From contig NZ_JAQNDL010000002.1 of assembly GCF_028368995.1 (NCBI RefSeq), forward strand, positions 896,001-960,000: a stretch of DNA of 64,000 nucleotides. Direction: 5' to 3'. The notes under the pieces were generated by a model. The model made no database searches. It saw only the letters and a list, made by a program, of their open reading frames with translations, and was not told where the DNA came from. The stretch's first letter is position 1. Every line of letters starts with the position of its first letter. The stretch comes from Nannocystis bainbridge. GTDB taxonomy: Bacteria > Myxococcota_A > Polyangia > Nannocystales > Nannocystaceae. Shown piece after piece: positions 1,628 to 55,026 of the stretch. Both the position numbers and the translations under genes were made by a program.

Positions 1628-1669
1628 TGGCCTTCGGGACATGTCTGAAGAGTCATGTCCCGTGGTCCC
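1628..1669. repeat. 14-bp periodic array (TGTCY-N4-RGACA family)
   Basis: CATG at 1640 and 1654; units tggccttcgggaca / tgtctgaagagtca / tgtcccgtggtccc. Confidence 0.75.
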
Positions 1670-1725
1670 GACGGTGCGCGCGGAGGAGACGGAGCGCTTG
1701 CTGGACGCCACGAGGCGTGACAAAA

Positions 1726-2781
1726 ATGGAGCTCTGCGAGCGGGTTTTCGTCCTTATGAAGGACGCCCTCAGGCTCCTCGATATCCATGGTGTCGCCGCT
1801 GTTCTCTTCGTCGCGAACGTGCTCCTCGCGGCGTGCTATCGTCCCTGCGACGAATGGGTCTCAACTCCGCTCGACGGGCGTATCCGCAAAGCGGAAGGTA
1901 TCGTAGCGATTGGTGCCGACGGCAGTGTGTTCGGGAGGCGCCGCGTTCAGGGCTTTCCGCCGACCGAGTTCACTGAGCTCTTGTTCTCAGCTCCTGAGCC
2001 GCTGTTGGCGCTCCACACTCCAGCCTTCGAGGGTTTATACGACCTGGAGGCGAGATATGCGGTCGTCGGAGAGCGCGGAACGATAGCGATTTCCAAAGGG
2101 AATGGCGTGGAGTGGGACCTCGTGCCAGCGCCGACGACCGAGGACCTCTACGGGGTTCGATTTTTTTGCGGACAGCCCGATCGCGGGCTCGTCAGCGGCG
2201 CAGCAGGCGTGATCCTCTCCACGGAGGCGGGCGGGGCGGCATGGGAGCTTCGTCCTTCTGGCACGTCGCAGGCGCTCCGCGCCGTCACGGTGCTTCGAGA
2301 CGGCGTCGCGGTCGCAGTCGGCGACGCCGGCACCATCATCCGCTCCGAAGATTATGGAGCGACCTGGTCGCCAGTCGCTTCCGGCACCGCCAAAGACCTG
2401 GCCTCGGTGGATTTCGGCGACTGCTGGGACCACTCGACTGTCGGGGACGAGCTGGGCATCGCGGTCGGGGCTGACGGGGTCGTTCTGGTGTCCGAGAATC
2501 GGGGAGAGACCTGGAAGCAGGCGTCACTGCCGATCCAGCACGATCTCAGGCAAGCGCAGCTCAACTACCGGTCCCCCAGCGCGCCAGAGCCTTACGCGGC
2601 GCTGGTCGGCGACGACGAGATCGTGTTCTGGGAGTTCGGCACGGATGCGCCGTTCGATCGGCTCACGTTCCCGACCCAAGTTTATGCGCTCGAGGACCGC
2701 GATTCGCCCCAGTATGCTATCGGGGACGCGCAGATATTCTCGCGCAAACGGGACGAGTGGTGTCCGGGCCGGTTCGATTGA
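1726..2781 (+). CDS. YCF48/BNR-like beta-propeller putative lipoprotein
   Basis: Lipobox-like LLAAC; repeats AVGDAGTIIRSEDYGATW, VGADGVVLVSENRGETW, SGAAGVILSTEAGGAAW; codon usage less GC-biased than neighbours; start uncertain. Confidence 0.7.
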   Translation: MELCERVFVLMKDALRLLDIHGVAAVLFVANVLLAACYRPCDEWVSTPLDGRIRKAEGIVAIGADGSVFGRRRVQGFPPTEFTELLFSAPEPLLALHTPAFEGLYDLEARYAVVGERGTIAISKGNGVEWDLVPAPTTEDLYGVRFFCGQPDRGLVSGAAGVILSTEAGGAAWELRPSGTSQALRAVTVLRDGVAVAVGDAGTIIRSEDYGATWSPVASGTAKDLASVDFGDCWDHSTVGDELGIAVGADGVVLVSENRGETWKQASLPIQHDLRQAQLNYRSPSAPEPYAALVGDDEIVFWEFGTDAPFDRLTFPTQVYALEDRDSPQYAIGDAQIFSRKRDEWCPGRFD

Positions 2782-2811
2782 GTTCTCGACTCGACCGCTG
2801 CGCCGATCGTG

Positions 2812-2853
2812 TGGCCTTGGGGACATGTCGAAATGGGCATGTCCCGCGGTCCT
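2812..2853. repeat. 14-bp periodic array
   Basis: CATG at 2824 and 2838; a further single unit tgtccgcgaggaca at 2911-2924. Confidence 0.75.
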
Positions 2854-2938
2854 GATGGTCCGTCGGCGGGCGATCGATCGAGGTGCTGGCGCTCGCGGCC
2901 GACATTGACCTGTCCGCGAGGACAGGCCCGCGCCTGGA

Positions 2939-3889: not shown

Positions 3890-4842
3890 GCCTCCGTCAT
3901 CTCGCACAGGCCGCGGACGTTGGCGAGGCCCTCGACGGCGTCGACCTCGGGCGCGCGGCCGTGCGCGACGGCGTCGACGAAGTCCTGGAGCTCGCCGAGG
4001 TAGGGGTCGGCTGGCTCATAGGACAGCTCGCGGTCGCCCACGACGATCCGGCCGCCGCCGTGCGGGCCGAGGACCTCGTCGCCGCGGGCCGAGCCGGCGT
4101 CGCCGAACACCTCGATCGTCCGCGGGGCGCGGAAGACGACCGAGGTGAGGATGTCGGCCGTGGCGCCGCTGGCGAACCGCAGCGCGACCGCGGCGGTCTC
4201 GTCGTGGGGGCTGCGGTGGACCGGGCTGCTGGTGAGCGCGCGGGCGTGCTCGATCTCGCCGCACGCGGGGCGCAGGAACCAGCGCACGAGATCGAGGCAG
4301 TGGGTGCCGACGGCCGCGAGCGACCACCAGCGGCCGACCTCGGGCGAGGCGCGCCAGTTGCCGGCGTCGCGCTCGACGAAGGTCCAGGTCGCGCGCATGT
4401 GCAGCACGCGGCCGAGCTCGCCGGCGAGCACGCGCGCGCGCAGGGCCCGGAGGCCGGGGTGAAACCGCAGGTGATAGCCGACGGCGAGGCGGACCCCGGC
4501 GGCCTCGCACGCGCGCACGACGGCCTCGGCGTCGGCGACGGAGGTGGCCATCGGCTTCTCGACGAACACGTGCTTGCCTGCCGCGGCGGCGGCGATCGCC
4601 TGGGCCGCGTGCAAGCGGTCGGGGGTGGCGATCACGACGGCGTCGAGGCGCGGGTCGGCGAGCATGTCGGCGAGGTCGCCGAAGATCGGACCGCGCGCGC
4701 CGTGGCGGGCGGCGAAGATTCGTGCGCGCTCCGGGTCGCGCGAGCACACGCTCCACAGCGTCGCGCCGCGGAGCTGCTGCAGGGCCGGCGCGAGGCGGCG
4801 ATCGGCGATCGATCCGGGGCCGACGACTCCGATGTGCAGCAC
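3886..4842 (-). CDS. Gfo/Idh/MocA family oxidoreductase
   Basis: IGVVGPGSIA Rossmann motif, DAVVIATPDRLH, GKHVFVEKPMA, GTHCLD; start approximate. Confidence 0.9.
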   Translation of the reverse strand: MLHIGVVGPGSIADRRLAPALQQLRGATLWSVCSRDPERARIFAARHGARGPIFGDLADMLADPRLDAVVIATPDRLHAAQAIAAAAAGKHVFVEKPMATSVADAEAVVRACEAAGVRLAVGYHLRFHPGLRALRARVLAGELGRVLHMRATWTFVERDAGNWRASPEVGRWWSLAAVGTHCLDLVRWFLRPACGEIEHARALTSSPVHRSPHDETAAVALRFASGATADILTSVVFRAPRTIEVFGDAGSARGDEVLGPHGGGRIVVGDRELSYEPADPYLGELQDFVDAVAHGRAPEVDAVEGLANVRGLCEMTEA

Positions 4843-4906: not shown

Positions 4907-4946
4907 TTTACATGTTCGATAGGACATGTCTGTAGAGACATGACCT
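4907..4946. repeat. 14-bp periodic array
   Basis: CATG at 4911, 4925, 4939 in a divergent intergenic region. Confidence 0.85.
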
Positions 4947-6557: not shown

Positions 6558-6600
6558 GGCGTTCGGGACATGTCGTCGAGGACATGTCCCGAAGGACCTG
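6557..6600. repeat. 14-bp periodic array between convergent genes
   Basis: CATG at 6569 and 6583, CCTG at 6597. Confidence 0.85.
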
Positions 6601-8892: not shown

Positions 8893-8928
8893 CCTGGTTC
8901 TTCGGGCATGTCTTTCGGGACATGTGAA
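8893..8928. repeat. 14-bp periodic array
   Basis: CCTG 8893, CATG 8907 and 8921. Confidence 0.7.
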
Positions 8929-10223: not shown

Positions 10224-10315
10224 TCGGCATGTCTTCATAAACATGTCTGAATGGACATGTTTGATGGGGCATGGCCAAGAGAGCATGGCCGAGAGGGCAT
10301 GTTTTCAAGGTCAGG
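10224..10315. repeat. 14-bp periodic array (7 junctions)
   Basis: CATG at 10228, 10242, 10256, 10270, 10284, 10298 and CAGG at 10312. Confidence 0.9.
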
Positions 10316-10557
10316 CGAGGGGGCAGGCCGGCGGGGCTGCCCGCGAGCGGTGCGGATCCGAGAGGCCAGGGCCCGCGTCGAAGCTTCGGTTGGTTTGCCA
10401 GCGACCCGCGGGTCGGGAGCCTCAAAACCGCCGGGATCGTCACGATGGCGCCTGAGCGCATCCTCGACGCCCGCAACCCGGTGAAGGGCGAGCCGCTGCA
10501 GCCCCGGGCGGCGCCCGTCGCTCCGGCGGCCGCCGGTCTGATAGCATCGCGGCGATG

Positions 10558-15681: not shown

Positions 15682-15762
15682 CGGGCATGTTCGATAGGAC
15701 ATGCCTAAAAGGCCATGTCTCATGGCGCATGTCCATGAGGACATGGCCTCGGAGACATGGGC
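15682..15762. repeat. 14-bp periodic array (6 junctions) between convergent genes
   Basis: CATG at 15686, 15700, 15714, 15728, 15742, 15756. Confidence 0.9.
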
Positions 15763-17032: not shown

Positions 17033-17068
17033 AGGACATGTCGCATGGAGCATGTCCGAAGAGTCATC
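17033..17068. repeat. 14-bp periodic array
   Basis: CATG at 17037 and 17051, CATC at 17065. Confidence 0.7.
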
Positions 17069-17462: not shown

Positions 17463-17610
17463 AAGGGCGGGGTCGGACGCCGGCTGCGCGGGCGATGAGC
17501 GAGCGCGCGGAGACGAGGAAGGCGCGATCGTGCGAGGTGGCCGTCGCGCAGAGGCGAGGACACCACGGGGTGAGAACGGTCGAGCGCGCGGAGGCGAGGG
17601 CTGAGCGACT

Positions 17611-17702
17611 CAGGGTCGTTCGGACATGGTCGAACGACCATGTCGTGACGGACATGCTCGTGGGGACATGGGCATGAGGACATGCGCTTTTGCGCATGTC
17701 CT
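17611..17702. repeat. 14-bp periodic array (7 junctions) between convergent genes
   Basis: CAGG 17611; CATG at 17625, 17639, 17653, 17667, 17681, 17695. Confidence 0.9.
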
Positions 17703-22250: not shown

Positions 22251-22343
22251 AGGGCATGGCCGATCGGGCATGTTCCCGAGGACATGTGCATCGGGGCATG
22301 TGTTCACGAGCATGTCCCGAAGGGCATGTCTCGAGAGACATGG
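22251..22343. repeat. 14-bp periodic array (7 junctions) between convergent genes
   Basis: CATG at 22255, 22269, 22283, 22297, 22311, 22325, 22339. Confidence 0.92.
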
Positions 22344-22374
22344 TGCTGGCGGGCGCCGCCGCCGAGGCCGACCG

Positions 22375-26301: not shown

Positions 26302-27417
26302 ATGCTCCGTGTCGCGCCGTGGCTCGCGCTGTTGCTGACGGGATGCGAGGCGATGTCGGGCCGCGAGGCCGGGCCCGAGGTCGCGCCGGTGACCGGGGCG
26401 ACGCTGGCGGAGACCGGGCCGCTGCGGGCCGCGATCGCGGCGGGGGTCCGGCGGCGCAGCGAGAACGAGGCGAGCTACGAGGTCGACGCGTTCGTGGCCG
26501 CGCTGGCGGTCGAGGAGCTGGCGAGCGGGACGGGCGGGGTGCGGGTCGAGCCGGCGGTGGAGCGCGGGGCGCAGGTCGGCTATCGGCTGACCGAGGTGGT
26601 GCCTGGCTCGGTGTACGAGCGGATCGGGCTGCGGACGGGCGACGTGGTCGAGGCGCTCGGCGAGGTCCGACTCGACAGCCCGGGCCGCGCGGCCGGGGCG
26701 CTGGCCCGGCTGGAGCGCGGCGGGCAGGTGACGGTGAGCCGCGACGGGGTCGGGTTCTCGCTCGAGCTGCGGGTCGCAGGCGGGCTGGCGTGGGCGGAGC
26801 TGCTGCGCTCCAGGACAGGTTCGCCAGGACAGGTCGCCGGGGACATGCCCTCGCGGACAGGCCCGTTGGGGCAGGTCCCGGAGGACAGGTGGGTGGCGGA
26901 CGGGGAGCCGCCGGCGGGGCCGCGCGACGGCGAAGCCGGAGGAACGCCGGTGGTGTCGCCGGGCGGCGGGGCGCTGCCGGGGACGCCGACGGGGTCGCGG
27001 CCGACGGGCGCGGGGAAGCCGAGCCGCGGCAGTACGGGCAGCGGGGTGGCGAGTCCTGCCGGTTCGACGGGCACGAGCCCGGCGGGGAAGACGGGGGTGC
27101 AGTGCGCGTCGGCGACGAGCTGCACGCTCGAGAAGCAGCAGTTCGACGCGGCGCTCGCCGACCCGAGCAAGCTCGAGCGCCAGGCGTCGATCTCACCGGC
27201 GCGCGGGGGCTACAAGCTGACCCGCGTGACGCCGGGCAGCACGGTGGCGGCGCTGGGGTTCCGCGCGGGCGACGTGATCGTGTCGGTCAACGGGGCCCGC
27301 CTCGACGACGACATGGCGGCGCTGGGGCTCTACATGGGGCTCGAGGGCACGCGCAAGTTCAACGTGACGTACGAGCGCAACGGGGCGCGCGCGAGCAAGG
27401 CGATCGCGCTGCGGTGA
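26302..27417 (+). CDS. PDZ-containing lipoprotein, GspC-like PDZ domains
   Basis: Lipobox LTGC; two PDZ-like repeats GYRLTEVVPGSVYERIGLRTGDVV and GYKLTRVTPGSTVAALGFRAGDVIVSVNG. Confidence 0.75.
   Translation: MLRVAPWLALLLTGCEAMSGREAGPEVAPVTGATLAETGPLRAAIAAGVRRRSENEASYEVDAFVAALAVEELASGTGGVRVEPAVERGAQVGYRLTEVVPGSVYERIGLRTGDVVEALGEVRLDSPGRAAGALARLERGGQVTVSRDGVGFSLELRVAGGLAWAELLRSRTGSPGQVAGDMPSRTGPLGQVPEDRWVADGEPPAGPRDGEAGGTPVVSPGGGALPGTPTGSRPTGAGKPSRGSTGSGVASPAGSTGTSPAGKTGVQCASATSCTLEKQQFDAALADPSKLERQASISPARGGYKLTRVTPGSTVAALGFRAGDVIVSVNGARLDDDMAALGLYMGLEGTRKFNVTYERNGARASKAIALR
26812..26890. repeat. 14-bp periodic array inside a CDS (6 junctions)
   Basis: CAGG/CATG at 26816, 26830, 26844, 26858, 26872, 26886 in the inter-PDZ linker. 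Confidence 0.88.
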
Positions 27418-27435: not shown

Positions 27436-27481
27436 GATGGCGCATGGGACATGTCCAGAGGGGCATGTCCGAAGTGACAGC
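27436..27481. repeat. 14-bp periodic array between convergent genes
   Basis: GATG 27436, CATG 27450 and 27464, CAGC 27478. Confidence 0.8.
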
Positions 27482-30247: not shown

Positions 30248-30250
30248 CGA

Positions 30251-30324
30251 GGTGTCCATGAGGACATGCCGCATGGGACATGTCCCATGCGGCATGGCGA
30301 AGCGGGCATGTCCCGGGGGACAGG
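30251..30324. repeat. 14-bp periodic array between convergent genes
   Basis: CATG at 30265, 30279, 30293, 30307; CAGG 30321. Confidence 0.9.
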
Positions 30325-35352: not shown

Positions 35353-35402
35353 GGGACATGCCCCGAAGGGCATGTCCGTCGAGACATGTCCGTGAAGACC
35401 TG
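35353..35402. repeat. 14-bp periodic array
   Basis: CATG at 35357, 35371, 35385; CCTG 35399. Confidence 0.85.
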
Positions 35403-36700: not shown

Positions 36701-36792
36701 GCGGGCGCGTCAGGCGAGGGCGCCGAGGGCGAGCGACGTGCGCGCCGGCGACGGCGAGCTGCGTGCGCGCCGGTCATGGTCGGAGCGCGTGA

Positions 36793-36880
36793 GATGGCTT
36801 TTCGAGCATGTCCTGATGGGCATGCTCGAGGCGACATGTCGATCGGGGCATGCTCCCGAAATCATGTCCCGAGAGACAGC
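36793..36880. repeat. 14-bp periodic array (7 junctions) between convergent genes
   Basis: GATG 36793; CATG 36807, 36821, 36835, 36849, 36863; CAGC 36877. Confidence 0.9.
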
Positions 36881-37413: not shown

Positions 37414-39546
37414 TCAGTCGGCGCGCACGGCGTCGCCGAGGATCGCCGAGTACAGCGCGGCGGCCGGATCGAGCGCGGCGGCGGGGGCGGCCAGCAGGAG
37501 CACGGCGTGGTCGCCGAGGCGGCGCTCGACGAGGCGGGCGATGGTCTCGCCGTTGCGCTGCAGCGTGTAGTTGGTGAAGCCGGCGAAGGCGGCCTCGGGA
37601 TCGGCCTCGGGGCGCAGGACGAGCTCGTGCGCGAGGGCCGGGGCGAGGACGAACAGAGCGCTGCCCTCGGCGGGGGCGTCGGGCACGACCACGAACTCGA
37701 CGAGGTGGCCGCCGCGCAGCGCCTGGGTGTCGAGCCAGCCAGGGAACACCTGCAGCAGCGGGTGGCGGCGCTCGCCAGCTTCGACGCGCTCGAAGCTGGT
37801 CGGCAGCGCGAGCGCGACGCCGTTCTCGACGACGCGGAGCTCGCGGTGGGCAGCGGCGAAGGCGATCGGATCTTCGCGCGAGACCTGGACGGCGCCGAGG
37901 CCGACGACGGCGATCGCGGCCAGGCACAGGCCGGCCAGCGGCTTGCGGGTCCAGCCGGGGAGGGTCGGTGGCAGCAGCAGGGTCAGCGCGGAGGCGACGA
38001 AGGCAGCTGTCCCGAGAGACAGGGGCGTCGAGCGCAGGCCGTAGACCCCGGGGATGCAGGCGAACACGTGCGCGCCGAGCAGGAAGAGCAGGGTGAGGAC
38101 GACGCTGCGGCGCACCGTCGAGAGCAGGCCCGGGGTGCGCGCGGGCAGCAGCGTCCACAAGGTGGCGACCAGCACGGCGACCGCGAGGGCGTTGCCGCCG
38201 CCGATGACCTGGGCCGGATCGGGGTCGGCGACCGCGGCGGCCCACATGCCGGCGGCGCTGCCGAGGATGGCGATCAGGCCGGTGCGGGCCCAGCCGTGGA
38301 TGCGCTCGAGCACATGTCCTGCGAGCCAGATCGAGTAGCAGTCGAGCAGCAGGCCGACGAGGTCGGCGTGCACGAACGGGGCGGTGAAGAGGCGGCCCCA
38401 GCTGCCGGCGCGCCACAGCTCGCCGGTCAGGGCGCCGGCGCGGAGCAGGCCGACGCCGGCCCAGCCGGCCGCGAGCGTGACCACGTACCAACCGGCCGAG
38501 ACGGCGATCAGGGCGGTGGTCATGATCAGCGGCTGCAGCCGGCGGGCCCCGCCGCGCTCGCGCAGGGCGGCGCGGAAGCGTTCGCCGACGGCCTGGACGA
38601 ACTCCTGCAGATCGTCGTCGAACGCCGGCGCGGGCTCGTCGACGTGGGCGCGCACGGTGCGAGCGGCGGCGGCGAGGCGGGTCTCGCTGCGGCGCGCGAG
38701 CCCGGGGACCTGCTGCAGCAACGCGTCGGCGCGCTGCGGATCGCCGGCGCGGGCGGCGGCGATCCCGAGGAACAGCGTGGCTGTCCCCGGGGACAGGCCG
38801 AGCCGGCGCCCGCGGTCGCGCACCAACGCGTCCTCGACGACGCCGAGCGCCCCGGAGTGGGCGAGGAAGGTGAGGCGCGCCTGGGCCAGCAGCTCGGCGG
38901 CGCCGGCCTCGCTGCCGAGCGGGCCGTCCTCGATCGAGCGCAGCAGCGCGGCCGCGGCGTCGTGACGCCCGAGCTCGCCGAAGGCGCGCAAGATCCCGAG
39001 CGCCAGCGTCGGCCGGACCGCGGCGTAGCTCGGGTGGAAGTGACTCTCGTAGTGCGTCACCGCCTCGCTCCAGCGGTGGTCGAACAGCAGCATCGCCACG
39101 ATCTGCTCGTGGATCACCGCCAGCTCGGCCGGCTCCTCGGCGGCGGCGACGAGGCCGCGGAAGTGGGCCAGCGCCGCGTCGACGCCGTCGCGGTCGAGCA
39201 GGGCGAAGCCGCGGAGGATCTGCTGCTGACGCCCGAGGCCGGCGCCGGGCATCAACATGGCTCGAAGACCAGACAGGCGCACGGCCAGGCGCGGGCGGCC
39301 GAGCGCGAACATCTGCCGGGCCCCGCGCTCGAGCAGCGCCGGGGCGACCACCGTCAGGCCGCACAGACAGATGACGACGGTCCCGAGGTAGCGGTCCTCG
39401 TAGACGATCGCGGTGAAGGCCAGCACGAGCTGCAGCCCCAGCACCGCCGCGTAGCCCCGCGGGCCGCCCGGTCGGCGGATCGTGCGGAGCAGGACCATGG
39501 CGAGGACCAGCCCCGCGAGGACCAGGAGGTTGTGATAGAGCGCCAA
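37414..39546 (-). CDS. Rhomboid-like membrane protein with TPR-like region, catalytic residues apparently lost
   Basis: WGRLFTAPFVH followed by TM helices; GxSG motif appears as IGGGNA. Confidence 0.65.
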   Translation of the reverse strand: MALYHNLLVLAGLVLAMVLLRTIRRPGGPRGYAAVLGLQLVLAFTAIVYEDRYLGTVVICLCGLTVVAPALLERGARQMFALGRPRLAVRLSGLRAMLMPGAGLGRQQQILRGFALLDRDGVDAALAHFRGLVAAAEEPAELAVIHEQIVAMLLFDHRWSEAVTHYESHFHPSYAAVRPTLALGILRAFGELGRHDAAAALLRSIEDGPLGSEAGAAELLAQARLTFLAHSGALGVVEDALVRDRGRRLGLSPGTATLFLGIAAARAGDPQRADALLQQVPGLARRSETRLAAAARTVRAHVDEPAPAFDDDLQEFVQAVGERFRAALRERGGARRLQPLIMTTALIAVSAGWYVVTLAAGWAGVGLLRAGALTGELWRAGSWGRLFTAPFVHADLVGLLLDCYSIWLAGHVLERIHGWARTGLIAILGSAAGMWAAAVADPDPAQVIGGGNALAVAVLVATLWTLLPARTPGLLSTVRRSVVLTLLFLLGAHVFACIPGVYGLRSTPLSLGTAAFVASALTLLLPPTLPGWTRKPLAGLCLAAIAVVGLGAVQVSREDPIAFAAAHRELRVVENGVALALPTSFERVEAGERRHPLLQVFPGWLDTQALRGGHLVEFVVVPDAPAEGSALFVLAPALAHELVLRPEADPEAAFAGFTNYTLQRNGETIARLVERRLGDHAVLLLAAPAAALDPAAALYSAILGDAVRAD

Positions 39547-41514: not shown

Positions 41515-44500
41515 CCGCCTCCGAGCAGGGCGGAGCCGGTCCAGCGGCGGATCCCCGGCACCGACTCGAGCGCCGCGCCGGCGTCGACGAGCTCGGCGAG
41601 CCAGCGACGCGCGAGCCGGGGCGCCGGGTCGCCGCCGTGCGTGGTAGCGATCGCGTCGAGCAGCCCGCGTTCACGCGCCGCCCGGTCGCCGTCGGCGTCG
41701 CGGATCCGCAGCCACGGCACGATCCGGGCCACGAGGTCGGCGGCGTCGGCATCGTCGACGCAGTGGCGCAGGTGGGCCGGCACGCCGCGCACCACCACCG
41801 CGTCGTCGCCGAACACGTCGAGGTCGACGCCGAGGCCGAGCAGCTCGGCGCGCGCGGCCTGGATCAGCGCGACGTCGGCGGTCGGGCGCTGGACCACCGC
41901 CGGCGACAGCAGGCCCTGCACGGCGACGGCGCGGCGGCCGACCAGGTCGCGCTGCAGGCGGAGATAGACCAGGTGCGAGCGGACCCGCCGGAGGTCGACG
42001 GCCAGCAGCGCGTCGCGGTCGGCGAACACGGCCACCGGGCCCGGGAGGCAGGCGAGCAGGGCAGGGATGTCGGGCCGCGCGGTGGCGGCGCTGGCCTGTC
42101 CTCCGGGACCGGACTGTTCGCGCATGTCTCGCGGGACAGGTGCGTCGCCGGGCAGCAGCGCCAGCGAGGCCTCGCGCTCGGGCTCGGCCGGGCGCGGGGC
42201 GGCGCCATCGGGCCGCAGCGCGGCGGCGGCCTCCATCATCGAGCGCTTGTGGCGGTCGTAGCCGTGGTCGAGCGCGCGCGTGCTCAGGCGGTAGGCGCCG
42301 GGGCGCCGCTCGTCGGCCGCGGGCGCGGGCGCCGGCGCCGGGTCGGGCTGACGCTCGGACCAGCGCAGCAGCGGATCGGCGCTGGCGCGCAAGTCGGGTG
42401 GGAACTCGCCGTCGGCCCGCTCGATCCACGCGGCGGCGCGGTCGCGGGCCGGGTCGAGCTCGCCGACGGCGCCGGCGCGCGCCAGCCAGGCGAGGTCGTC
42501 GGGGGACATGTCCCCGGGGACAGGCACCTCGGGCCGCTCGCGGGCGGGACCGGTGCCCGAGGACATGTCCTGCGGGACAGGCGAGCGGAGCAGGGTGGGG
42601 CCGGCCGCGGGCGACATGTCCTCGGGGACAGGACGTGGGCTGGCCGAGGGCGCGGGGCTCGCGGATGGGTCCTCGGCGGGTCGAGCGGCTTGGCTACCCG
42701 AGGTTCGGGCAGCGACCGGATCGGCATCACCGGGGGTCGCTTGCTCGCGGTCCTGATCGGACCCGAATGGCATGTCCTGAGAGACATGTCCGAACGATCC
42801 GGGCCGAAGGGACATGTCCTCGGTGCCAGGTCGACCCGGGCCTGGCGCGGGCTCGCGGGACGAGTGCCGGGCGGCATCCGGATCGGCCAGGTCGAGGTCC
42901 CAGCCGGCGTCGCCCGTCGGCGCCGCCACGGTCGGCCCGGCGCCGGTCCGTCGCGCCGGCTCGGGGGCGGACGTGGCGAGCGCGGTCTCGACGAGCGGGC
43001 GGCGGGTGGCGTCGACCGAGGCCTCGGCGCGGCTCAGCCAGGCCTCGGCCTCGGCGCGGCGCCCGGCCGCCGCGGCTGCCGCTGCCTGCTGGGCGCGGCG
43101 GACGGCGGGGCCGGGCGCGTCGGACTCGAGGTCGTCGGCGCGACGCGGCGAGCTCGAAGACGTCTCGTCGCCAGCAGGAGCGCCGTCGTGGGCGTGCGTG
43201 GCCCTCGGAGCACCCGCGGAGACGTCGCGGCTCGCGTCGTCCCGCTGCGAGCGCGGGGGATCGCCCTCGTCGTCCGGGTCGTCGTCCTGCTCCTCCGGCG
43301 TCTCGCCGGCGTGCGGGCGCGCGGGGCGACGGCGCGGGTGTCCAGCGCCTTGTGCCTCGTCCTCGCGCGGGTCGCCGACGCGGACCGGCGCGAAGCCGAT
43401 CGGGATCGCGCCGCCGCGGCCGGGGGGCACGCCGGTCGCGCGCGGGGTCTCGCTCGCGGCTGGCGCATCGGACATGTTCGTAGCGACCTGTCCCGAAAGA
43501 CCGGCGAGTTCGCCGGCCCACGGCGCGGCGGCCACGGCGGCGGCGAGGATCCGGCGCACGGCCGCGTAGACCTGCTGCGGCTCGCTGAAGCGGACCTCGG
43601 CCTTTTGCGGGTGGACGTTGACGTCGACGGCGCCGCTGGGCGGCTCGACGAACAGGCAGGCCGAGGGGGCCTCTCCACCGAGGCCGTAGGCCTGGGTGAG
43701 GATCTGCGCCAGGCTGCGCTCCCGCACCACGCGCTGGCGGGTGATGAGGTAGGGGCTGCCGCGACCGCGGGCGGCGGCGGTCGGGTGGGGCAGGAAGGCT
43801 TCGACGCGGATGCCGTCGTCCTCGCCGCGGAAGGCGAAGAACGGGCCGCCGACGCGGCGCTCGAGCACCTGGGCGACGCGGCCCTCGCGGGTGGTCCGCG
43901 GCAAGTTGAGCAGCTCGCGCTTGCCGTGGCGCAGGGTGAAGTGGACGCCCGGGTGGACGATGGCGAGGCGCAGCAGGGTGTCGCTGCAGTGGCCGACCTC
44001 GGTCGCCTCGGCGCGCATGAACTTGCGCCGGGCGGGCAGGTTGGCGAACAGCGCGTGCACGTCGATCTGGGTCCCGACCGGCATGCCGGCCGGGGTGAGG
44101 ACGGGGGCCTCGCCAGGGATCCCGTGCAGGTGCACGCCGACGGCCGCGCCGGGCTGGCGGCTGCGCAGGTCGACGCGCGCGACCGCGGCGACGCTGGCGA
44201 GCGCCTCGCCGCGGAAGCCGAGAGTGACGATGTCGGCGATGTCGGCCGCGTGCCGCAGCTTGCTGGTGGCGTGGCGGGTGACGGCGAGCAGGAGGTCGTC
44301 AGGGTGGATCCCGCGGCCGTTGTCGCGGACGGAGATCCGGGCCATGCCGCCGTCCTCGAGCTCGACGTCGACGCGGGTCGCGCCGGCGTCGAGGCTGTTG
44401 TCGACCAGCTCCTTGATGACCGAGGCGGGCCGCTCGACGACCTCGCCGGCGGCGATCTGGTCGATCACCAGGGCGCCGAGCACGGCGATCCGTCCGGAGG

Positions 44501-47741: not shown

Positions 47742-48959
47742 GTGCGAGTCAGCGCCGTCGCCGTCCCCCGCGCGTCTCGCAAGTGTCGCTCAGGACATGT
47801 CCGATGGGCCATGTCCCTCGGGCTAGGTCTCTCGATCTGGCTCTCGGGACAGCCGGCGATCGCGGCCCCGGCGGCGCCGGCGACCGCGGCGCGGGCGGCG
47901 TTCGAGGCCGGCGCCAAGGCGTTCGCCGCCGGCGACTACGAGCGCGCGCTGGCGGAGTTCGAGCGGGCGATGGCGCTGCGGCCGTCGCCGAAGATCCACT
48001 ACAACATCGGCGTGTGTCGCCAGCAGTTGATGCTCGCGGCCCAGGAGCGGGGCGATGTCGCGGCCGAGTCGCTGCACGCGGCCGCGGCGGTCGAGGCGTA
48101 CAAGGCGTACCTGCGCGAGGTGCCGGACGCGGACGATCGCGGCGAGGTCGAGGCGACGATCCGCGATCTCGGCGGGACGCCGCAATTTCAGCTCAAACCC
48201 CTCCCATCGCCGCGCGGCGAGGGGACACCTGTCGGACGCGAGGACGCGGCGACGTCACCCGCACCTGTCCCCGAGTCGCCGCCGGTGCCTGTCCCCGATC
48301 CGTCGCCCGTGGCTCCACTGCCGTCCGGGGCGGACGCGCGCGAGTCGACGCCGCCGCCGGCCGCAGTAACACCGTTGTTCCGCGGTCGCGTCGGCGCGAC
48401 CTTCGGACTTAACGGTCAACCGCAAGTCGGCACGTCGCGGCTCGACGGCGCGGTGCAGGGCTTCGCGATGGCGCGGCTCGGCGGCTTCCTCGGCGCGCGA
48501 CGTCGGGTCTACATCGGCGGCGCCGGCTTGCTCGCGGGGGCCGCCGTGACGGCGAACGACAAGCTCGCCCTGCACATGCAAGCGGTGCTGCTCGACCTCG
48601 AGTACGCGCATCCGGTCGGTCGTGCGCGGCGCTTCGAGATCGTTGGCGGCGGGTTCCTCGTCCTCGCGCGCGAGGCTCTGCGGATCCGCGCGGAGGGGCA
48701 ACGTCCGGTGTGTGCGGCGCATTCCAGCGGAGGCCTCGTCAGCCAGCGGGGCGGGGCGGGCGCGGGTGGACGGGTCGGTTTCCACGTGCTACTTGGAGCG
48801 CGCAAAAACCACGAGCTCGGCGTGCGACTCTCCTCCGCAATTCTCGGCTTTGGACAGGGCACGGCGGCCGCCGGCTGCGAGCCGTCGTTCTCCCAGCTCG
48901 ATGTCCCGAGAGCCAGGTGGCTCGTCCTCGTCGACTCGGGTTACTCGTTCCGATTCTAG
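47742..48959 (+). CDS. Secreted TPR protein with C-terminal beta-rich (outer-membrane-like) domain
   Basis: Signal-like segment, TPR (GDYERALAEFERAMALRP...YNIGVC), Pro-rich linker, C-terminal YSFRF; 14-bp units at 47784-47824 overlap the 5' end; start uncertain. Confidence 0.7.
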   Translation: MRVSAVAVPRASRKCRSGHVRWAMSLGLGLSIWLSGQPAIAAPAAPATAARAAFEAGAKAFAAGDYERALAEFERAMALRPSPKIHYNIGVCRQQLMLAAQERGDVAAESLHAAAAVEAYKAYLREVPDADDRGEVEATIRDLGGTPQFQLKPLPSPRGEGTPVGREDAATSPAPVPESPPVPVPDPSPVAPLPSGADARESTPPPAAVTPLFRGRVGATFGLNGQPQVGTSRLDGAVQGFAMARLGGFLGARRRVYIGGAGLLAGAAVTANDKLALHMQAVLLDLEYAHPVGRARRFEIVGGGFLVLAREALRIRAEGQRPVCAAHSSGGLVSQRGGAGAGGRVGFHVLLGARKNHELGVRLSSAILGFGQGTAAAGCEPSFSQLDVPRARWLVLVDSGYSFRF

Positions 48960-50471: not shown

Positions 50472-50510
50472 AATGGCTTCGAGGACATGTCCTGCAGGAC
50501 ATGTCCTCGA
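50472..50510. repeat. 14-bp array forming a perfect 32-bp palindrome
   Basis: tcgaggacatgtcctgcaggacatgtcctcga at 50479-50510; CATG at 50486 and 50500. Confidence 0.9.
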
Positions 50511-51850: not shown

Positions 51851-51852
51851 CG

Positions 51853-51940
51853 CCTGTCGCAGAGGACATGCTCGGACGAGCATGTCGCCGGGGGCATGTC
51901 GCTTCGGGCATGTCGTTTCGGGCATGTCTCGAGAGACATA
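51853..51940. repeat. 14-bp periodic array (7 junctions) between convergent genes
   Basis: CCTG 51853; CATG 51867, 51881, 51895, 51909, 51923; CATA 51937. Confidence 0.92.
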
Positions 51941-52809: not shown

Positions 52810-52993
52810 GGGGCGGCTTCGTCCGTCTGCGCCGGCGGCGCGTACTCGACAAGATAGACCACAGCCGGCCGACCAGGGCGGCGGGGTCGCCGAGCTTCAC
52901 GGGGCAGGCGCGTGGATTGCCGCGTGTGGGCCCGCACGTGAGGCAGTGCGGGGTCCGCGAAGTCCGAGCCGGGGGCGGCGGGATAGAAGCGAG

Positions 52994-53039
52994 CCTGTCT
53001 GAAAGAACAGGTCTCATGCGCTATGTCCGAAGAGACACC
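52994..53039. repeat. 14-bp periodic array in a divergent intergenic region
   Basis: CCTG 52994, CAGG 53008, TATG 53022, CACC 53036. Confidence 0.7.
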
Positions 53040-53129
53040 TGGTTCGTCGGCGCGCGCGGCGGCGGCCCGGCCCGGGCGCCGGACGGGCGCCCTTGCTGGG
53101 CCGCGCGTGGCCGCGATAAAACGCCGGCC

Positions 53130-54869
53130 ATGAGGCTCGCCCCGCTCGCCGCGCTCGCGCTGTCCGTCACCGCTTGCCCGAAACCGGGGGCCGAGCCCGC
53201 CAGCGAGGCGAAGCCAGGACCCGCGCCGGTGGCGGTCCAGACGCCGCAGAGCGCGGCCGGGAGCATCACGCCCGGGGCGACGCGCGTGACGGAGTGCCCG
53301 CGCTCGCTCGGGGGCGCCGAGGCGCAGATCGATCGGGTGATCTCGAAGGACTGCGGGCCGGTCACGGTGGTCGAGGATTACCGCGTCGACAACGGCTCGC
53401 TCACGCTCGAGGCCGGGGCGACGCTGCAGTTCAAGGACGGCGCGGCGCTGATCGTCGGCGCGTCGGAGCCGGCGAAGCTGCTGGTCGCGGGCACGCCGAC
53501 GGAGCCGGTCACGCTGACTTCGGCCAGCGACAAGGCGGCGGGCGCGTGGCGAGGCGTGGAGCTCGGCGACAAGGCGGCGCGCTCGCAGATCCAGGGCGCG
53601 GTGATCGAGTTCGCCGGCACGGAGGAGCGGGCGCTGTGGATCGCGGCCGCCGAGGTGACGCTCGAGGGCACGACGATCCGCGAGGCCCGCGGTCCGGCGA
53701 TCCGGCTCGAGGGCGCGGGCAGCCTGGCGTCGTTCACCGGCAACACGCTGCGCAAGCTCGGCTCGAAGGCGGCGATCGTGGCCCCGGCGACGGCGGTGAT
53801 CGGGATCGCCGGCGGCAACCGCTTCGACGGCGAGGCGGTGGTGCAGGTGCTGGGCGGTGACATCGGCGCGCCGACCACGTGGCCCAACCCGGGCGTGCCG
53901 CTGCGGCTCAACGAGGAGGTGCGGGTGGGTGGCGCCGGGCCCGAGCGCGCGGTGCTCAACCTGTCCCCGGGGACAGAGCTGCGGTTCGGGCCGGAGGGTC
54001 GGCTGTCGATCGGCAGCAGCGCCGACGGCGGCCTGGTGGCCCGCGGCACCAGCGAGGCGCCGATCACGTTCACGGCCGGCGATCGGCGTCAGGCCGGTGG
54101 GTGGGGCGGGCTGCAGATCTGGGCCCGCGGCGAGGCGGACCTCGAGCACGCGGCCTTCGAATTCGGCGGCGGCGGCGACGAGGGCACCGCCGCGCTGATG
54201 GTCGAGGACGGGGCGCTGTCGCTGCGCGAGACGACGTTTCGCAGCAACCGCGCGGGCGTGGCGATCCGCGGCAAGGCGACGCTGCGCGCGCTGGCCGACA
54301 ACCGCTTCGCGGCCACCAAGCGGGCGCTCGAGCTGCCGGCCGACCTGGTCGGGGCGCTCGGCGAGGGCAACGCGTTCGACAGCGACGGGCGCATCGTGGT
54401 GGTCCCGGGCGCGGTCACCAGCAAGGCGACGTGGGCGGCTCACGGCGCGCCGCTCGAGCTGAGCGGCGAGGTGCTGGTCGGCGCCGAGCTGACCCTCGAG
54501 GCAGGTCTGCGCGTGCTCGCCGGACCCGAGGCCGCGCTGATCGTCGGCAGCGACGCGCCGGCGGCCCTGCTGGCCCACGGGACCGCGGAGGCGCCGATCC
54601 AGCTGGCGGCGAGCGCCGGGGTGTGGCGCGGCATCAAGCTGCACGGCAAGACGCTGGCGAGCACGCTGCAGCACGTCGAGCTGTCGCAGACGGGGGCAGA
54701 GCCGGCGGTGTGGGTCGAGGCGCCGACCGAGGTGCGCCTCGACAACGTCACCTGCGCGAAGTGCAAGGCGGCGGTGGTCGGCTGGCAGTGCGGCGCCTCG
54801 GTGTCGCAGTCGGCGGTGCTGGCGACCGACGGCACGCCGGCGATCGACGCGCCGCCGCAGGGCTGCTGA
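53130..54869 (+). CDS. Lipoprotein with three internal beta-helix-like repeats
   Basis: Lipobox VTAC; repeated LTLEAG...F...L.VG...L.A.GT.EAPI.FT...W.G. Confidence 0.78.
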   Translation: MRLAPLAALALSVTACPKPGAEPASEAKPGPAPVAVQTPQSAAGSITPGATRVTECPRSLGGAEAQIDRVISKDCGPVTVVEDYRVDNGSLTLEAGATLQFKDGAALIVGASEPAKLLVAGTPTEPVTLTSASDKAAGAWRGVELGDKAARSQIQGAVIEFAGTEERALWIAAAEVTLEGTTIREARGPAIRLEGAGSLASFTGNTLRKLGSKAAIVAPATAVIGIAGGNRFDGEAVVQVLGGDIGAPTTWPNPGVPLRLNEEVRVGGAGPERAVLNLSPGTELRFGPEGRLSIGSSADGGLVARGTSEAPITFTAGDRRQAGGWGGLQIWARGEADLEHAAFEFGGGGDEGTAALMVEDGALSLRETTFRSNRAGVAIRGKATLRALADNRFAATKRALELPADLVGALGEGNAFDSDGRIVVVPGAVTSKATWAAHGAPLELSGEVLVGAELTLEAGLRVLAGPEAALIVGSDAPAALLAHGTAEAPIQLAASAGVWRGIKLHGKTLASTLQHVELSQTGAEPAVWVEAPTEVRLDNVTCAKCKAAVVGWQCGASVSQSAVLATDGTPAIDAPPQGC

Positions 54870-54976
54870 CGGGGCAGGGGAGGCGCGTCGGCCCTGAGGT
54901 CGCGTCGGGCGGTATCACCGGTCACGGGCAGCGACGGCGACGACGCGCCTGCGGTCCCGTGTGGTCGCGCGAGTGA

Positions 54977-55026
54977 GATGGCCGAAGCGACATGTCTTCA
55001 TGCACATGTCCGACCAGTCATGTTCT
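54977..55026. repeat. 14-bp periodic array between convergent genes
   Basis: GATG 54977; CATG 54991, 55005, 55019. Confidence 0.85.

What the first reader, a model, noticed from the sequence alone, without database searches (positions are those of the whole stretch)
1628..55026. Dispersed 14-bp palindromic unit (TGTCY-N4-RGACA) in strictly phased arrays: candidate undescribed DNA-site system
Seen: about 35 loci counted by eye. Single units such as tgtccccggggaca lie at 38782, 49469 and 53962, with variants at 2911, 7478, 14455, 20384, 28827 and 38008. Head-to-tail arrays put a CATG/CAGG junction exactly every 14 bp, e.g. 22255-22339 (7), 10228-10312 (7), 17611-17695 (7), 36793-36877 (7), 51853-51937 (7) and 15686-15756 (6). 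The central bases vary freely while the arms and phase are kept, so these are not recent slippage tandem repeats. Inference: this is the pattern expected for cooperative binding sites of a dimeric DNA-binding protein. Three units make 42 bp, about 4 helical turns, so successive dimers would rotate about 120 degrees around the DNA. Possible roles are nucleoid organisation, a transcription roadblock, a recombination hotspot or a methylation-marked CATG. I do not recognise it as a described REP/BIME/CRISPR/parS family, and no cognate protein is evident in the window.
Basis: partly seen in the sequence, partly recalled or inferred. Interest (0 to 1): 0.92.

Follow-up and report, generated by a model that had tools for sequence, protein, structure and literature searches.

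The report
Phased palindromic hairpin arrays after genes
A soil bacterium and its close relatives carry thousands of short, strictly 14-base-spaced palindromic repeats just after the ends of genes; they most likely fold into hairpins that mark or protect transcript ends, and they form a repeat family that does not seem to have been described.

Summary
CATG-CATG spacing in the window peaks at 14/28/42/56 bp (49/29/22/11 pairs, against 1 and 3 at 13 and 15 bp). Genome-wide there are 3,736 pairs at 14 bp.

The unit is a 10-bp palindrome, GGRCATGYCC, plus a variable 4-nt spacer. I count 2,835 arrays of 2-12 units, about 1.1% of the 11-Mb genome.

The arrays do not sit at promoters. They lie just after stop codons and occupy 691 of 1,511 convergent gaps, against 123 of 1,509 divergent gaps. 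Neighbouring units fold into stem-tetraloop hairpins. Hairpin-partner bases covary (odds ratios 4.6 and 6.6) while control pairs do not.

The family is essentially confined to one Polyangia genus. Array positions are conserved across five species while unit number and spacers change. No RAYT gene, U-tract or Rfam match was found.

Best reading: REP/BIME-like 3'-end hairpin arrays acting as terminators or mRNA stabilisers. Near-invariant CATG and 99% exact spacing imply an unidentified sequence-specific reader or a molecular drive. Cooperative binding to double-stranded DNA is a weaker rival.

The parts
1637..1660 (.). 2-unit element just after the stop of the gene ending at 1621
   Evidence: CATG chain 1640/1654 at 14 bp; sequence
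2821..2844 (.). 2-unit element in convergent gap 2782-2938. A further single unit lies at 2911-2924.
4908..4945 (.). 3-unit array in a divergent gap (a 5' region), kept in all four relatives
6562..6597 (.). 2-unit hairpin that nearly fills the 46-bp convergent gap. A compensatory G-C to A-T change is seen in relative G010.
   Evidence: orthologues; MFE -29.3 kcal/mol, z -6.2
8904..8927 (.). 2-unit element in divergent gap 8735-9052
10225..10318 (.). 6 CATG units plus a CAGG-type unit, starting 7 nt after the stop at 10218
   Evidence: fold z -5.8
15683..15762 (.). 6-unit array in convergent gap 15651-15762. Relatives have 6, 4, 4 and 2 units.
17034..17057 (.). 2-unit element in gap 16876-17084
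17608..17701. 6 CATG units plus a CAGG junction, directly after the pyruvate carboxylase stop codon (gene 17708-21187, minus strand). An array is present at this site in all five relatives aligned; the count for four of them gives 6, 3, 6 and 4 units.
   Evidence: first hairpin has a 12-bp stem with an AAAA loop; whole region z -6.0
22252..22345 (.). 7-unit array that fills the convergent gap between two Ser/Thr kinase genes (22242-22374)
   Evidence: fold z -3.7 on the plus strand and -2.0 on the minus strand
26813..26890 (.). CAGG-type array (GGACAGGTC units, period 14) inside the coding region of a PDZ-domain protein (26302-27417, plus strand), upstream of the PDZ domain
   Evidence: TRF period 14, 5.6 copies
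27447..27470 (.). 2-unit element in convergent gap 27418-27490
30250..30322 (.). Array that fills convergent gap 30248-30324. Several spacers are themselves CATG, giving interleaved chains.
35354..35391 (.). 3-unit element in the 43-bp tandem gap. The stem differs by compensatory changes: GGACATGCCC/GGGCATGTCC here, GGACATGCGC/GCGCATGTCC in G005 and G001 (G010 and G007 carry near-variants).
36790..36878 (.). 5 CATG units plus terminal half-units in convergent gap 36701-36861
   Evidence: fold z -5.2
42125..42816 (.). Several single and paired units in frame (mostly read as D-M-S) within the disordered linker of MutL (41511-44483, minus strand). They include 42125, 42509, 42566, 42617 and the chain 42771-42816.
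   Evidence: Pfam domains at residues 17-316 and 818-921; linker units in all five species
47793..47816 (.). 2-unit element in or near tandem gap 47687-47810
50483..50506 (.). 2-unit perfect hairpin (13-bp stem, UGCA loop) in convergent gap 50448-50574
   Evidence: z -4.3
51864..51938 (.). 5 CATG units plus a decayed unit, after the stop of a conserved plus-strand ORF that my gene caller missed
   Evidence: TRF 3.5 copies at 88%
54988..55025 (.). 3-unit array in convergent gap 54870-55073. Relatives carry expanded, rearranged versions.
38782..38795 (.). Isolated TGTCCCCGGGGACA unit inside a rhomboid-family gene (37414-39546, minus strand), outside the Pfam domain. The identical 14-mer also lies at 42509, 49469 and 53962.

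Best explanation
This is a genus-specific family of extragenic palindromic arrays.

Structure. The 14-bp unit TGTCY-N4-RGACA is joined head to tail, so each CA/TG junction makes a 10-bp palindrome, GGRCATGYCC, every 14 bp. When the DNA is transcribed, or is otherwise single-stranded, each core pairs with its neighbour across the 4-nt spacer. This gives 8-15-bp stems with 4-nt loops.

Proposed function. Because the arrays sit directly after stop codons, I propose that these hairpins act at mRNA 3' ends. They would stop or pause RNA polymerase without a U-tract (factor- or Rho-assisted), or block 3' exonucleases, or both. One hairpin module would serve each incoming transcript, which would explain why arrays between convergent genes are about twice as long.

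What is shown and what is inferred. Shown here: placement, foldability, pair-specific covariation, conservation of position across species, and restriction to one genus. Inferred: the termination/stabilisation function and the RNA (rather than DNA) level of action.

A second layer is needed. Hairpin selection alone cannot explain the near-invariant CATG or the 99% exact 14-bp spacing. An unidentified sequence-specific reader (protein or enzyme), or a molecular drive, must maintain the core sequence. Units also occur inside protein linkers, which suggests the family spreads or regenerates wherever DNA tolerates it.
For: Placement, from my own codon-usage gene caller (8,206 genes):
- 691 of 1,511 convergent gaps hold an array, against 394 of 2,647 and 313 of 2,534 tandem gaps and 123 of 1,509 divergent gaps.
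- In the window: 10 of 11 convergent, 7 of 18 tandem and 3 of 11 divergent gaps.
- In 921 tandem-gap arrays the median distance is 42 nt from the upstream stop and 176 nt to the next start; 668 are closer to the stop and 251 closer to the start.
- Convergent arrays peak at 5-6 units, tandem arrays at 2.

Folding: 8 array regions were folded. z-scores range from -2.0 to -6.2, and the structures are adjacent-unit stems with tetraloops.

Covariation:
- In 853 two-unit intergenic elements, hairpin-partner positions covary: U1[8]-U2[3] odds ratio 4.6 (p 6e-10) and U1[9]-U2[2] odds ratio 6.6 (p 4e-11).
- Within-unit and same-position controls have odds ratios at or below 1.
- The result replicates in the stop-proximal pair of tandem arrays (p 3.5e-7) and in the terminal pairs of long convergent arrays (p 0.002 to 2e-5), but much less in internal pairs (p 0.36, 0.006 and 0.94).
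- Compensatory changes between orthologues are seen at 6558-6603, 35343-35385 and downstream of pyc.
- Spacers i and i+2 are more complementary than expected, by +0.02 to +0.10. No consistent long-range nesting signal appears.

RNA level: on the sense strand of tandem-gap arrays, G.U-type mismatches outnumber A.C-type, 2,595 to 2,149 (p 1e-10).

Maintenance: gaps with an array in the window have one in 46 of 57 orthologous gaps of four relatives. Gaps without one have an array in 1 of 73. Array-bearing gaps vary widely in length and sequence.

No competing terminators: hairpin-plus-T-run sites in 4001-24000 number 6, against 3.8 +/- 2.4 in shuffles.

Precedent:
- E. coli REPs act as partly Rho-dependent terminators and mRNA stabilisers (abstract of bioRxiv 10.64898/2026.03.23.713779).
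- Paired uptake sequences form terminator hairpins in Neisseria and Pasteurellaceae (passages of PMC1852404).
Against: - There are no transcript data. No true RNA run holds this DNA, so termination or stabilisation is untested.
- No T-tract follows the arrays, so they are not canonical intrinsic terminators.
- Loop sequences show no sense-strand preference: TTCG 37 against CGAA 38, GNRA 60 against its complement 47. RNA-level selection for stable tetraloops would predict a bias.
- The G.U over A.C excess could also come from a transcription-linked mutation bias, because the marginal base frequencies are themselves skewed.
- Covariation pooled over all adjacent pairs is weak (mutual information 0.001-0.009 bits). 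It is largely absent for internal pairs of long arrays.
- CAGG/CCTG variant units are not preferentially arranged in complementary order: 16 complementary against 35 same-sense neighbours.
- Hairpin function does not explain the invariant CATG, the exact 4-nt linkers between hairpins, the roughly 900 loosely defined arrays and 495 exact cores inside genes, or the arrays in 123 divergent gaps.
- Gene contexts depend on a home-made gene caller.
Confidence: 0.5

Rival explanations
1. Molecular-drive or selfish repeat. GGRCATGYCC would be over-represented because a genus-specific process favours it: biased DNA uptake as with DUS/USS, biased repair as proposed for cyanobacterial HIP1, or an unknown copy mechanism. 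Units then accumulate wherever DNA is tolerant, such as 3' gaps and disordered protein linkers. Arrays grow by 14-bp slippage, and any hairpin or terminator effect is a by-product or a later co-option.
For: - The exact 10-mer GGACATGTCC occurs 956 times, against 0-26 for eight control palindromes I chose.
- It is genus-specific: present in 9 of 10 other genomes of the genus, plus 1-3 copies in 2 of 4 genomes of one sister genus, and in no genome of the other 134 genera sampled in the class.
- 495 of 1,771 exact cores lie in called genes, with a frame bias that fits codon usage (D-M-S 331, G-H-V 136, T-C-P 28). Their flanks are mildly P/A/G-rich.
- The MutL linker carries several units in all five species, at different positions.
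- Array-free gaps have near-constant length across species, which suggests constraint. Array-bearing gaps are hypervariable, which suggests tolerance.
- Near-identical neighbouring units are 8 times more frequent than in random pairs, so slippage does occur.
- ComEC, DprA and ComEA-type genes are present.
- Paired uptake sequences acting as terminators are a known precedent.
Against: - As I recall them, known uptake sequences and HIP1 occur as singles or inverted pairs, not as phased arrays of up to 12 units.
- Competence genes occur in 10-11 of the 14 control genomes, so their presence is not diagnostic.
- Hairpin-specific covariation and placement next to stop codons indicate selection on structure, not only tolerance.
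- Presence and absence are stable across species (46 of 57 against 1 of 73), with almost no new sites, so ongoing spread is slow at best.
- No Y1 transposase was found in 11 genomes of the genus.
- Only 1 viral contig in the IMG/VR collection carries the double core.
Confidence: 0.22
2. One reading: arrays are tandem operators for a dimeric protein that binds double-stranded DNA, one dimer per 14 bp, cooperatively. The complex would act as a roadblock, a topological barrier (for example a gyrase- or condensin-related site between convergent genes) or a nucleoid organiser.
For: - The core sequence is conserved far beyond what pairing needs: CATG 92-94% against a flat spacer.
- Spacing is exact in 1,619 of the 1,636 consecutive strong cores that lie 13-15 bp apart, even for the linkers between hairpins, as if measured by a ruler.
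- Arrays persist in otherwise unalignable gaps.
- Enrichment between convergent genes, where positive supercoils accumulate (established knowledge), fits a topology-related site.
- Loop sequences are strand-symmetric.
Against: - Watson-Crick covariation between half-sites across the spacer, with no positive association for the symmetric within-core pair, is not expected for independently read half-sites.
- Arrays are rare at promoters (8% of divergent gaps).
- Units occur inside coding sequence.
- A 14-bp step turns successive dimers by about 120 degrees, which does not favour side-by-side cooperativity (inference).
- No candidate protein was found or tested.
Confidence: 0.18
3. Classical REP/BIME elements mobilised by a REP-associated tyrosine transposase (RAYT).
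For: The elements are extragenic palindromes clustered at gene 3' ends, with thousands of copies restricted to one lineage.
Against: - Pfam Y1_Tnp (PF01797) has no match in the window's genome or in any of the 11 genomes of the genus. The same search hits 6 of 14 control genomes.
- There is no GTAG-type 5' tetranucleotide (a feature I recall, not one I retrieved). The conserved tetranucleotide is CATG, in the middle of the stem.
- The unit is self-palindromic, so the alternating orientation of BIMEs has no counterpart.
Confidence: 0.04

Closest known systems
REP/BIME elements of Escherichia coli and other proteobacteria
   Same: Both are short imperfect palindromes in hundreds to thousands of copies. 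Both lie outside genes, mostly at 3' ends and between convergent genes, and are often clustered. Both fold into stem-loops in the transcript. REPs are reported to act as partly Rho-dependent terminators and mRNA stabilisers (abstract of bioRxiv 10.64898/2026.03.23.713779).
   Different: - No RAYT/Y1 transposase in 11 genomes of the genus.
- The unit is only 14 bp and self-palindromic.
- Units are concatenated with 99% exact 14-bp phasing and unconstrained 4-nt spacers.
- The conserved tetranucleotide is CATG inside the stem.
- Units also occur in frame within genes.
Paired DNA uptake sequences (DUS/USS) that form terminators in Neisseria and Pasteurellaceae
   Same: Both involve a genus- or family-specific motif of 9-11 nt with about 1,000 or more copies. 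Closely spaced complementary copies form the stems of hairpins after genes, and copies also occur in coding sequence (passages of PMC1852404). Here the motif is a 10-nt core with 956 exact copies and 1,771 degenerate copies.
   Different: - The core here is itself a palindrome.
- It forms phased tandem arrays of up to 12 units.
- There is no U-tract.
- No evidence of biased uptake or of natural competence exists for this organism.
   Same: A palindromic repeat family found both between genes and inserted in frame inside protein-coding genes at tolerant positions.
   Different: As I recall, RPEs are 100-150 bp and not tandemly phased. Here the units are 14 bp and the genic copies sit mainly in low-complexity linkers.
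Tandem met-box operators of MetJ and heptad arrays of omega repressor; recalled
   Same: Short, partly palindromic units repeated head to tail in strict phase.
   Different: Those arrays lie at promoters, are few per genome and have a known repressor. The arrays here lie at 3' ends, number thousands, and show Watson-Crick covariation.
HIP1 highly iterated palindrome of cyanobacteria; recalled
   Same: A lineage-specific, hyper-abundant short palindrome found in both coding and non-coding DNA, of unknown function, possibly maintained by a drive.
   Different: As I recall, HIP1 is dispersed. It is neither phased in arrays nor concentrated after stop codons.

Membership tests
REP/BIME (RAYT-associated extragenic palindromes) | Extragenic imperfect palindromes that can form stem-loops | tested here: met
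   Folds with z from -2.0 to -6.2. Pair-specific covariation.
REP/BIME (RAYT-associated extragenic palindromes) | Located mainly at gene 3' ends or between convergent genes, and often clustered | tested here: met
   691 of 1,511 convergent gaps against 123 of 1,509 divergent gaps. Median 42 nt after the stop codon.
REP/BIME (RAYT-associated extragenic palindromes) | A cognate RAYT (Y1/HUH transposase, Pfam PF01797) in the genome | tested here: not met
   0 matches in the window's genome and 0 of 11 genomes of the genus. The control search hits 6 of 14 reference genomes. Genome completeness is 64-91%.
REP/BIME (RAYT-associated extragenic palindromes) | Conserved GTAG-type tetranucleotide at the 5' foot of the hairpin (feature recalled from memory) | tested here: not met
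   The flank logo shows only a half-unit, TGnCC. The conserved tetranucleotide is CATG, inside the stem.
DNA uptake sequences (DUS/USS) | Lineage-specific 9-12-nt motif in about 1,000 or more copies, in both coding and non-coding DNA | tested here: met
   956 exact and 1,771 degenerate cores, of which 495 lie in genes. Restriction to the genus.
DNA uptake sequences (DUS/USS) | The motif confers preferential DNA uptake in a naturally competent host | not testable with these tools
   ComEC, DprA and ComEA-type genes are present, but they also occur in 10-11 of the 14 control genomes, so they are not diagnostic.
DNA uptake sequences (DUS/USS) | Occurs as dispersed singles or inverted pairs (feature recalled, and from passages) | tested here: not met
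   1,369 arrays have 3 or more units, up to 12, in strict 14-bp phase.
Intrinsic (Rho-independent) terminators | G+C-rich hairpin directly after a gene | tested here: met
Intrinsic (Rho-independent) terminators | A U/T-tract immediately 3' of the stem | tested here: not met
   T frequency is 0.08-0.30 in the 20 nt after arrays, with no tract. The terminator scan finds 6 sites against 3.8 +/- 2.4 in shuffles, none of them an array hairpin with its own T-run.
Tandem operator arrays of a cooperative dimeric DNA-binding protein | Palindromic units in fixed phase | tested here: met
   1,619 of the 1,636 neighbouring strong cores that lie 13-15 bp apart are exactly 14 bp apart.
Tandem operator arrays of a cooperative dimeric DNA-binding protein | Half-sites conserved independently, with no base-pair covariation | tested here: not met
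   Hairpin partners have odds ratios of 4.6 and 6.6. Within-core symmetric pairs have odds ratios at or below 1.
Tandem operator arrays of a cooperative dimeric DNA-binding protein | An identified cognate binding protein | not tested
Rfam RNA families | Match at the gathering score | tested here: not met
   The only hit in the window is a group II intron. The only sub-threshold hit on an array is rsmX at 22 bits against a gathering score of 56, E 0.62.

The most novel reading that the evidence does not exclude
The arrays are the cis element of a dedicated, genus-specific system. A sequence-specific factor would read GGRCATGYCC hairpins or duplexes with a 14-nt ruler at gene ends. It could be a new kind of factor-dependent, bidirectional terminator or 3'-end processing signal that replaces U-tract terminators in a 72% G+C genome. 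Alternatively it could be the first phased, palindromic DNA-uptake or self-recognition signal. The same factor, or a linked drive, would seed units into protein linkers.
Probability: 0.25. Interest if true: 0.85.

Novelty: new variant of a known kind. Interest (0 to 1): 0.62.

Why it matters
About one gene in four in this 11-Mb genome is followed by one of these arrays. That figure is derived from 691 convergent and 707 tandem gaps with arrays, against 8,206 called genes.

If the arrays are the terminators or 3'-end stabilisers, they would explain how a very G+C-rich myxobacterial lineage with few canonical terminators ends its transcripts. They would also give an easy operon-boundary marker for annotation, and compact bidirectional terminator parts for engineering these natural-product producers.

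The family is also a clean natural case for an open question about REP-like repeats: what keeps a core sequence and an exact spacing constant over thousands of copies while the rest randomises, in the absence of a RAYT?

The in-frame copies in MutL and other proteins show that a nucleic-acid-level repeat can shape protein linkers.

Tried and rejected
1. Expression data. The look-up of sequencing runs listed no holder on record as RNA. It listed only small-share (0.08-0.12) environmental runs kept as contigs.

I laid four of them. Pieces of relatives' contigs align to the genes. Several stop at gene ends next to arrays; for example three records begin at 17706, the pyc stop. This can be explained by divergence of the gaps or by assembly breaks, and the runs are probably DNA. 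I draw nothing from it.

2. Long-range nesting (one long hairpin per array). Spacer complementarity is seen only between spacers i and i+2, so this is rejected.

3. CAGG/CCTG variants as compensatory pairs. They are not enriched in complementary order (16 complementary against 35 same-sense).

4. Even-number preference of units. None is seen in the length distributions.

5. Sense-strand tetraloop preference. None.

6. Link between the group II intron at 10558 onward and the arrays. The three identical intron copies share a different target motif, so there is no link.

7. CRISPR, parS, tRNA-like or other known RNA families. A 4-nt spacer rules out CRISPR, and Rfam finds nothing.

8. The search for related loci with pyruvate carboxylase. 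That the genus is Sorangium-like is my inference from genome size, G+C content and class. It is not shown.

9. Literature. Seven full-text searches found no description of this repeat. These covered the core 10-mer, and Sorangium or Polyangiaceae combined with palindromic, REP, terminator, stem-loop or HIP terms.

The 10-mer appears only in p53 papers; it equals a consensus p53 half-site, which is a coincidence. In the two Sorangium-related papers I read only passages around the search terms.

Full report

- The cited arrays read as described. In the window, 266 CATG sites give 49 pairs at 14 bp, 29 at 28, 22 at 42, 11 at 56 and 5 at 70. There is 1 pair at 13 bp and 3 at 15 bp.
- The window is C3:896001-960000 of an 11.05-Mb genome in 5 contigs, 71-72% G+C. 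Genome-wide, 39,940 CATG sites give 3,736 pairs at 14 bp (72 at 13, 262 at 15), then 2,073 / 1,586 / 751 / 383 at 28 / 42 / 56 / 70.

**2. Anatomy.**

- The logo of the 3,736 pairs is a 10-bp palindrome, GG(A/G)CATG(T/C)CC, followed by four nearly free, somewhat A+T-richer bases.
- In an unbiased sample (the middle unit between two CATGs 28 bp apart, n = 2,073), the middle tetranucleotide is CATG in 1,670 cases. Each CATG position is 92-94% conserved, GG/CC about 70%, R/Y 50-56%, and the spacer is flat.
- The commonest variants are CCTG (70), CAGG (62), CATT (58) and AATG (41). The transition variants CGTG and CACG are rare (4 and 7).
- Seeding on cores with at least 9 of 10 matches, and extending in 14-bp steps through cores with at least 7 of 10, gives 2,835 arrays of 2 or more units. 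The distribution is 2: 1,466; 3: 556; 4: 269; 5: 259; 6: 188; 7: 73; 8: 16; 9: 5; 11: 1; 12: 2.
- The same procedure at steps of 11, 12, 13, 15, 16 or 17 bp gives 49-179 two-unit chains and almost nothing longer.
- By my arithmetic this is about 8,800 units, or 1.1% of the genome.
- Between consecutive strong cores the distance is 14 bp 1,619 times, 13 bp 15 times and 15 bp twice.
- Adjacent units are near-identical in only 2.6% of cases, against 0.3% for random pairs. Slippage therefore happens, but the arrays are not recent slippage products.
- Array ends often carry a half-unit (TGnCC ... GGnCA).

**3. Where the arrays sit.** No gene caller is installed, so I wrote a codon-usage log-likelihood caller. 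It,206 genes covering 84% of the genome. All context figures depend on it.

| Gap type | Gaps with an array of 2+ units |
|---|---|
| Convergent | 691 of 1,511 |
| Tandem (plus-plus) | 394 of 2,647 |
| Tandem (minus-minus) | 313 of 2,534 |
| Divergent | 123 of 1,509 |

Divergent gaps are the longest of the three, yet hold the fewest arrays.

- Arrays of 4 or more units number 438 in convergent gaps, 251 in tandem gaps and 17 in divergent gaps.
- In the window, 10 of 11 convergent, 7 of 18 tandem and 3 of 11 divergent gaps hold an array.
- In 921 tandem-gap arrays the median distance from the upstream stop is 42 nt, and to the next start 176 nt. 668 arrays are nearer the stop and 251 nearer the start.
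- No T-tract follows the arrays.
- Canonical hairpin-plus-T-run sites are not enriched in 4001-24000: 6 against 3.8 +/- 2.4 in shuffles.

**4. Do they fold, and is folding selected?**

- Eight array regions were folded as RNA. They give adjacent-unit stems of 10-15 bp with 4-nt loops, with z-scores from -2.0 to -6.2. Examples: 6558-6603 at -29.3 kcal/mol, and the first hairpin after pyc with a 12-bp stem.
- Pooled over all adjacent pairs, covariation is weak, at 0.001-0.009 bits. It becomes clear where the pairing partner is unambiguous.
- In 853 two-unit intergenic elements:
  - pairs next to the loop covary (U1[8]-U2[3] odds ratio 4.6, p 6e-10; U1[9]-U2[2] odds ratio 6.6, p 4e-11);
  - one outer pair covaries weakly (odds ratio 1.7, p 0.008);
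  - all within-unit symmetric and same-position controls have odds ratios at or below 1.
- The result repeats in the stop-proximal pair of tandem-gap arrays (p 3.5e-7).
- It repeats in the terminal pairs of convergent arrays of 4 or more units (p 0.002, 2e-5, 2.5e-5). Internal pairs show much less (p 0.36, 0.006, 0.94).
- Spacers i and i+2, which flank a potential hairpin, are more complementary than expected (+0.02 to +0.10). No consistent long-range nesting signal is seen.
- On the sense strand of tandem-gap arrays, G.U-type mismatches outnumber A.C-type, 2,595 to 2,149 (p 1e-10).
- Against an RNA-only reading:
  - the marginal base frequencies are themselves skewed, so a mutation bias could contribute;
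  - loops show no sense-strand preference;
  - CAGG and CCTG units are not arranged in complementary order.

**5. Comparison with relatives.**

- The strict double core occurs 184 times in this genome and 67-127 times in the five large (12-13 Mb) genomes of the same genus. It is found in 9 of 10 genus members in all.
- In a sample of 301 genomes of the class, it occurs only in this genus (5 of 5) and in 2 of 4 genomes of one sister genus, at 1 and 3 copies. It occurs in none of the other 134 genera. The reversed-pattern control finds 0 everywhere.
- The sister-genus copies are near-perfect two-unit hairpins; three of the four lie within about 70 nt after an apparent stop codon. This may be the ancestral form.
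- I fetched the syntenic region of four relatives (85-94% nucleotide identity in genes).
- Gaps with an array in the window have one in 46 of 57 orthologous gaps. Gaps without one have an array in 1 of 73.
- Unit number differs between species (for example 6/6/4/4/2 and 6/0/4/5/6), spacers differ, and array-bearing gaps vary several-fold in length. Array-free gaps keep nearly the same length in four of the five species or in all five (for example 127/127/127/126/127).
- Downstream of pyruvate carboxylase, all six species compared carry an array that starts at the same distance from the stop. The first, second and fourth CATG columns are conserved in all six; the third differs in one species. 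The first stem differs by compensatory changes: CGC/GCG against CCC/GGG.
- Further compensatory changes are seen at 6558-6603 (G-C to A-T in G010) and 35343-35385.

**6. Units inside genes.**

- About 900 loosely defined arrays, and 495 of 1,771 exact cores, fall inside called genes. These are not gene-calling artefacts. Flanking third-position G+C content is the same as in ordinary coding sequence: 0.93-0.95 against 0.947.
- The clearest example is MutL (41511-44483, minus strand). It has Pfam domains at residues 17-316 and 818-921. Its long linker carries several units in all five species, at different positions, mostly read as D-M-S.
- A CAGG-type array lies upstream of the PDZ domain of the protein at 26302-27417. 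Isolated units lie outside the rhomboid domain of the protein at 37414-39546.
- Frame use is biased (D-M-S 331, G-H-V 136, T-C-P 28). This bias fits the G+C-rich third codon positions.
- Flanks are mildly enriched in P, A and G and depleted in I, F, Y, N and K.

**7. What it is not.**

- No Rfam family matches.
- No Y1/RAYT transposase is found in this genome or in any of the 11 genomes of the genus, while the control search hits 6 of 14 reference genomes.
- It is not CRISPR, because the spacers are only 4 nt.
- It is not phage-borne: 1 contig in IMG/VR carries the double core.
- The group II intron beside the array at 10228 is unrelated to the arrays.

**8. Interpretation.**

- Placement, foldability, pair-specific covariation and positional conservation make 3'-end hairpins the best-supported function. 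They would act as terminators, as exonuclease barriers, or both, working from both directions in convergent gaps. This resembles E. coli REPs and paired uptake sequences. I put this at about 0.5.
- It is incomplete. Hairpins do not need an invariant CATG, nor exact 4-nt linkers between hairpins. Function at 3' ends also does not explain the copies in protein linkers. These features call for a sequence- and spacing-specific reader, or for a drive.
- The rivals are:
  - a drive-based, selfish origin with co-opted function (0.22);
  - classical RAYT-REPs (0.04).
- The first two rivals are not mutually exclusive with a hairpin function.

**9. Novelty and score.**

- Seven literature searches found no description. 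The 2007 genome paper and all supplementary files could not be read.
- I class this as a new variant of a known kind (REP-like extragenic palindromes). It is unusual for its strict 14-bp phasing, the lack of a RAYT, its scale (about one gene in four) and its in-frame copies.
- Interest 0.62. It is real, large and testable. Its most likely role is a familiar one, and no expression or binding data could be obtained.

Noticed in passing
window 10558-12456: A group II intron. Its GTGCG start is at 10558, an Rfam D1-D4 match lies at 10628-10763, and a reverse transcriptase/maturase ORF lies at 11278-12456. It is absent from the four relatives at this site. The first 300 nt of the intron occur in three identical copies in the genome, all preceded by a similar motif of about 18 nt ending in CGATG.
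   Followed up: partly
window 41511-44483 (minus strand): MutL has an unusually long (about 500-residue), hypervariable linker between its N- and C-terminal domains. In the stretch compared across the five species, its length ranges from 521 to 887 nt, and it is studded with the repeat unit.
   Followed up: partly
window 1622-2938 and about 10219-14621: These stretches have no counterpart at the syntenic position in the four relatives (the BLAST blocks skip them). They look like insertions specific to this genome, yet they already carry 2-unit elements.
   Followed up: no
relative G010, gap orthologous to window 54870-55073 (within L086-L089): This gap has expanded to 615 bp. It contains a higher-order tandem repeat of roughly 85-90 bp, and each copy holds a pair of units. 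Arrays can therefore be amplified as parts of larger repeats.
   Followed up: no
window 22524-22818: 33- and 66-bp tandem repeats (up to 4.4 copies at 85-93% match) lie inside the Ser/Thr kinase gene 22375-23973. They are unrelated to the 14-bp family.
   Followed up: no
window 51220-51984: A conserved plus-strand ORF, alignable in all four relatives, was missed by my gene caller. The gap called 'tandem' there is really convergent, and the array follows this ORF's stop codon.
   Followed up: partly
whole genome, contig C1 bins at about 0.5, 1.1-1.3 and 1.8 Mb; contig C5 at about 0.4 Mb: Some 100-kb bins hold only 1-5 arrays, against a mean of 20-33. These may be giant biosynthetic gene clusters or foreign islands.
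   Followed up: no
core motif: GGACATGTCC is identical to a consensus p53 half-site. All of the top-listed literature hits for the 10-mer that show a clear context are p53 papers. I treat this as coincidence.
   Followed up: no
whole genome, step-13 control: One chain of 13 units at a 13-bp step turned up in the control scan. It is a different tandem repeat somewhere in the genome, and I did not look at it.
   Followed up: no
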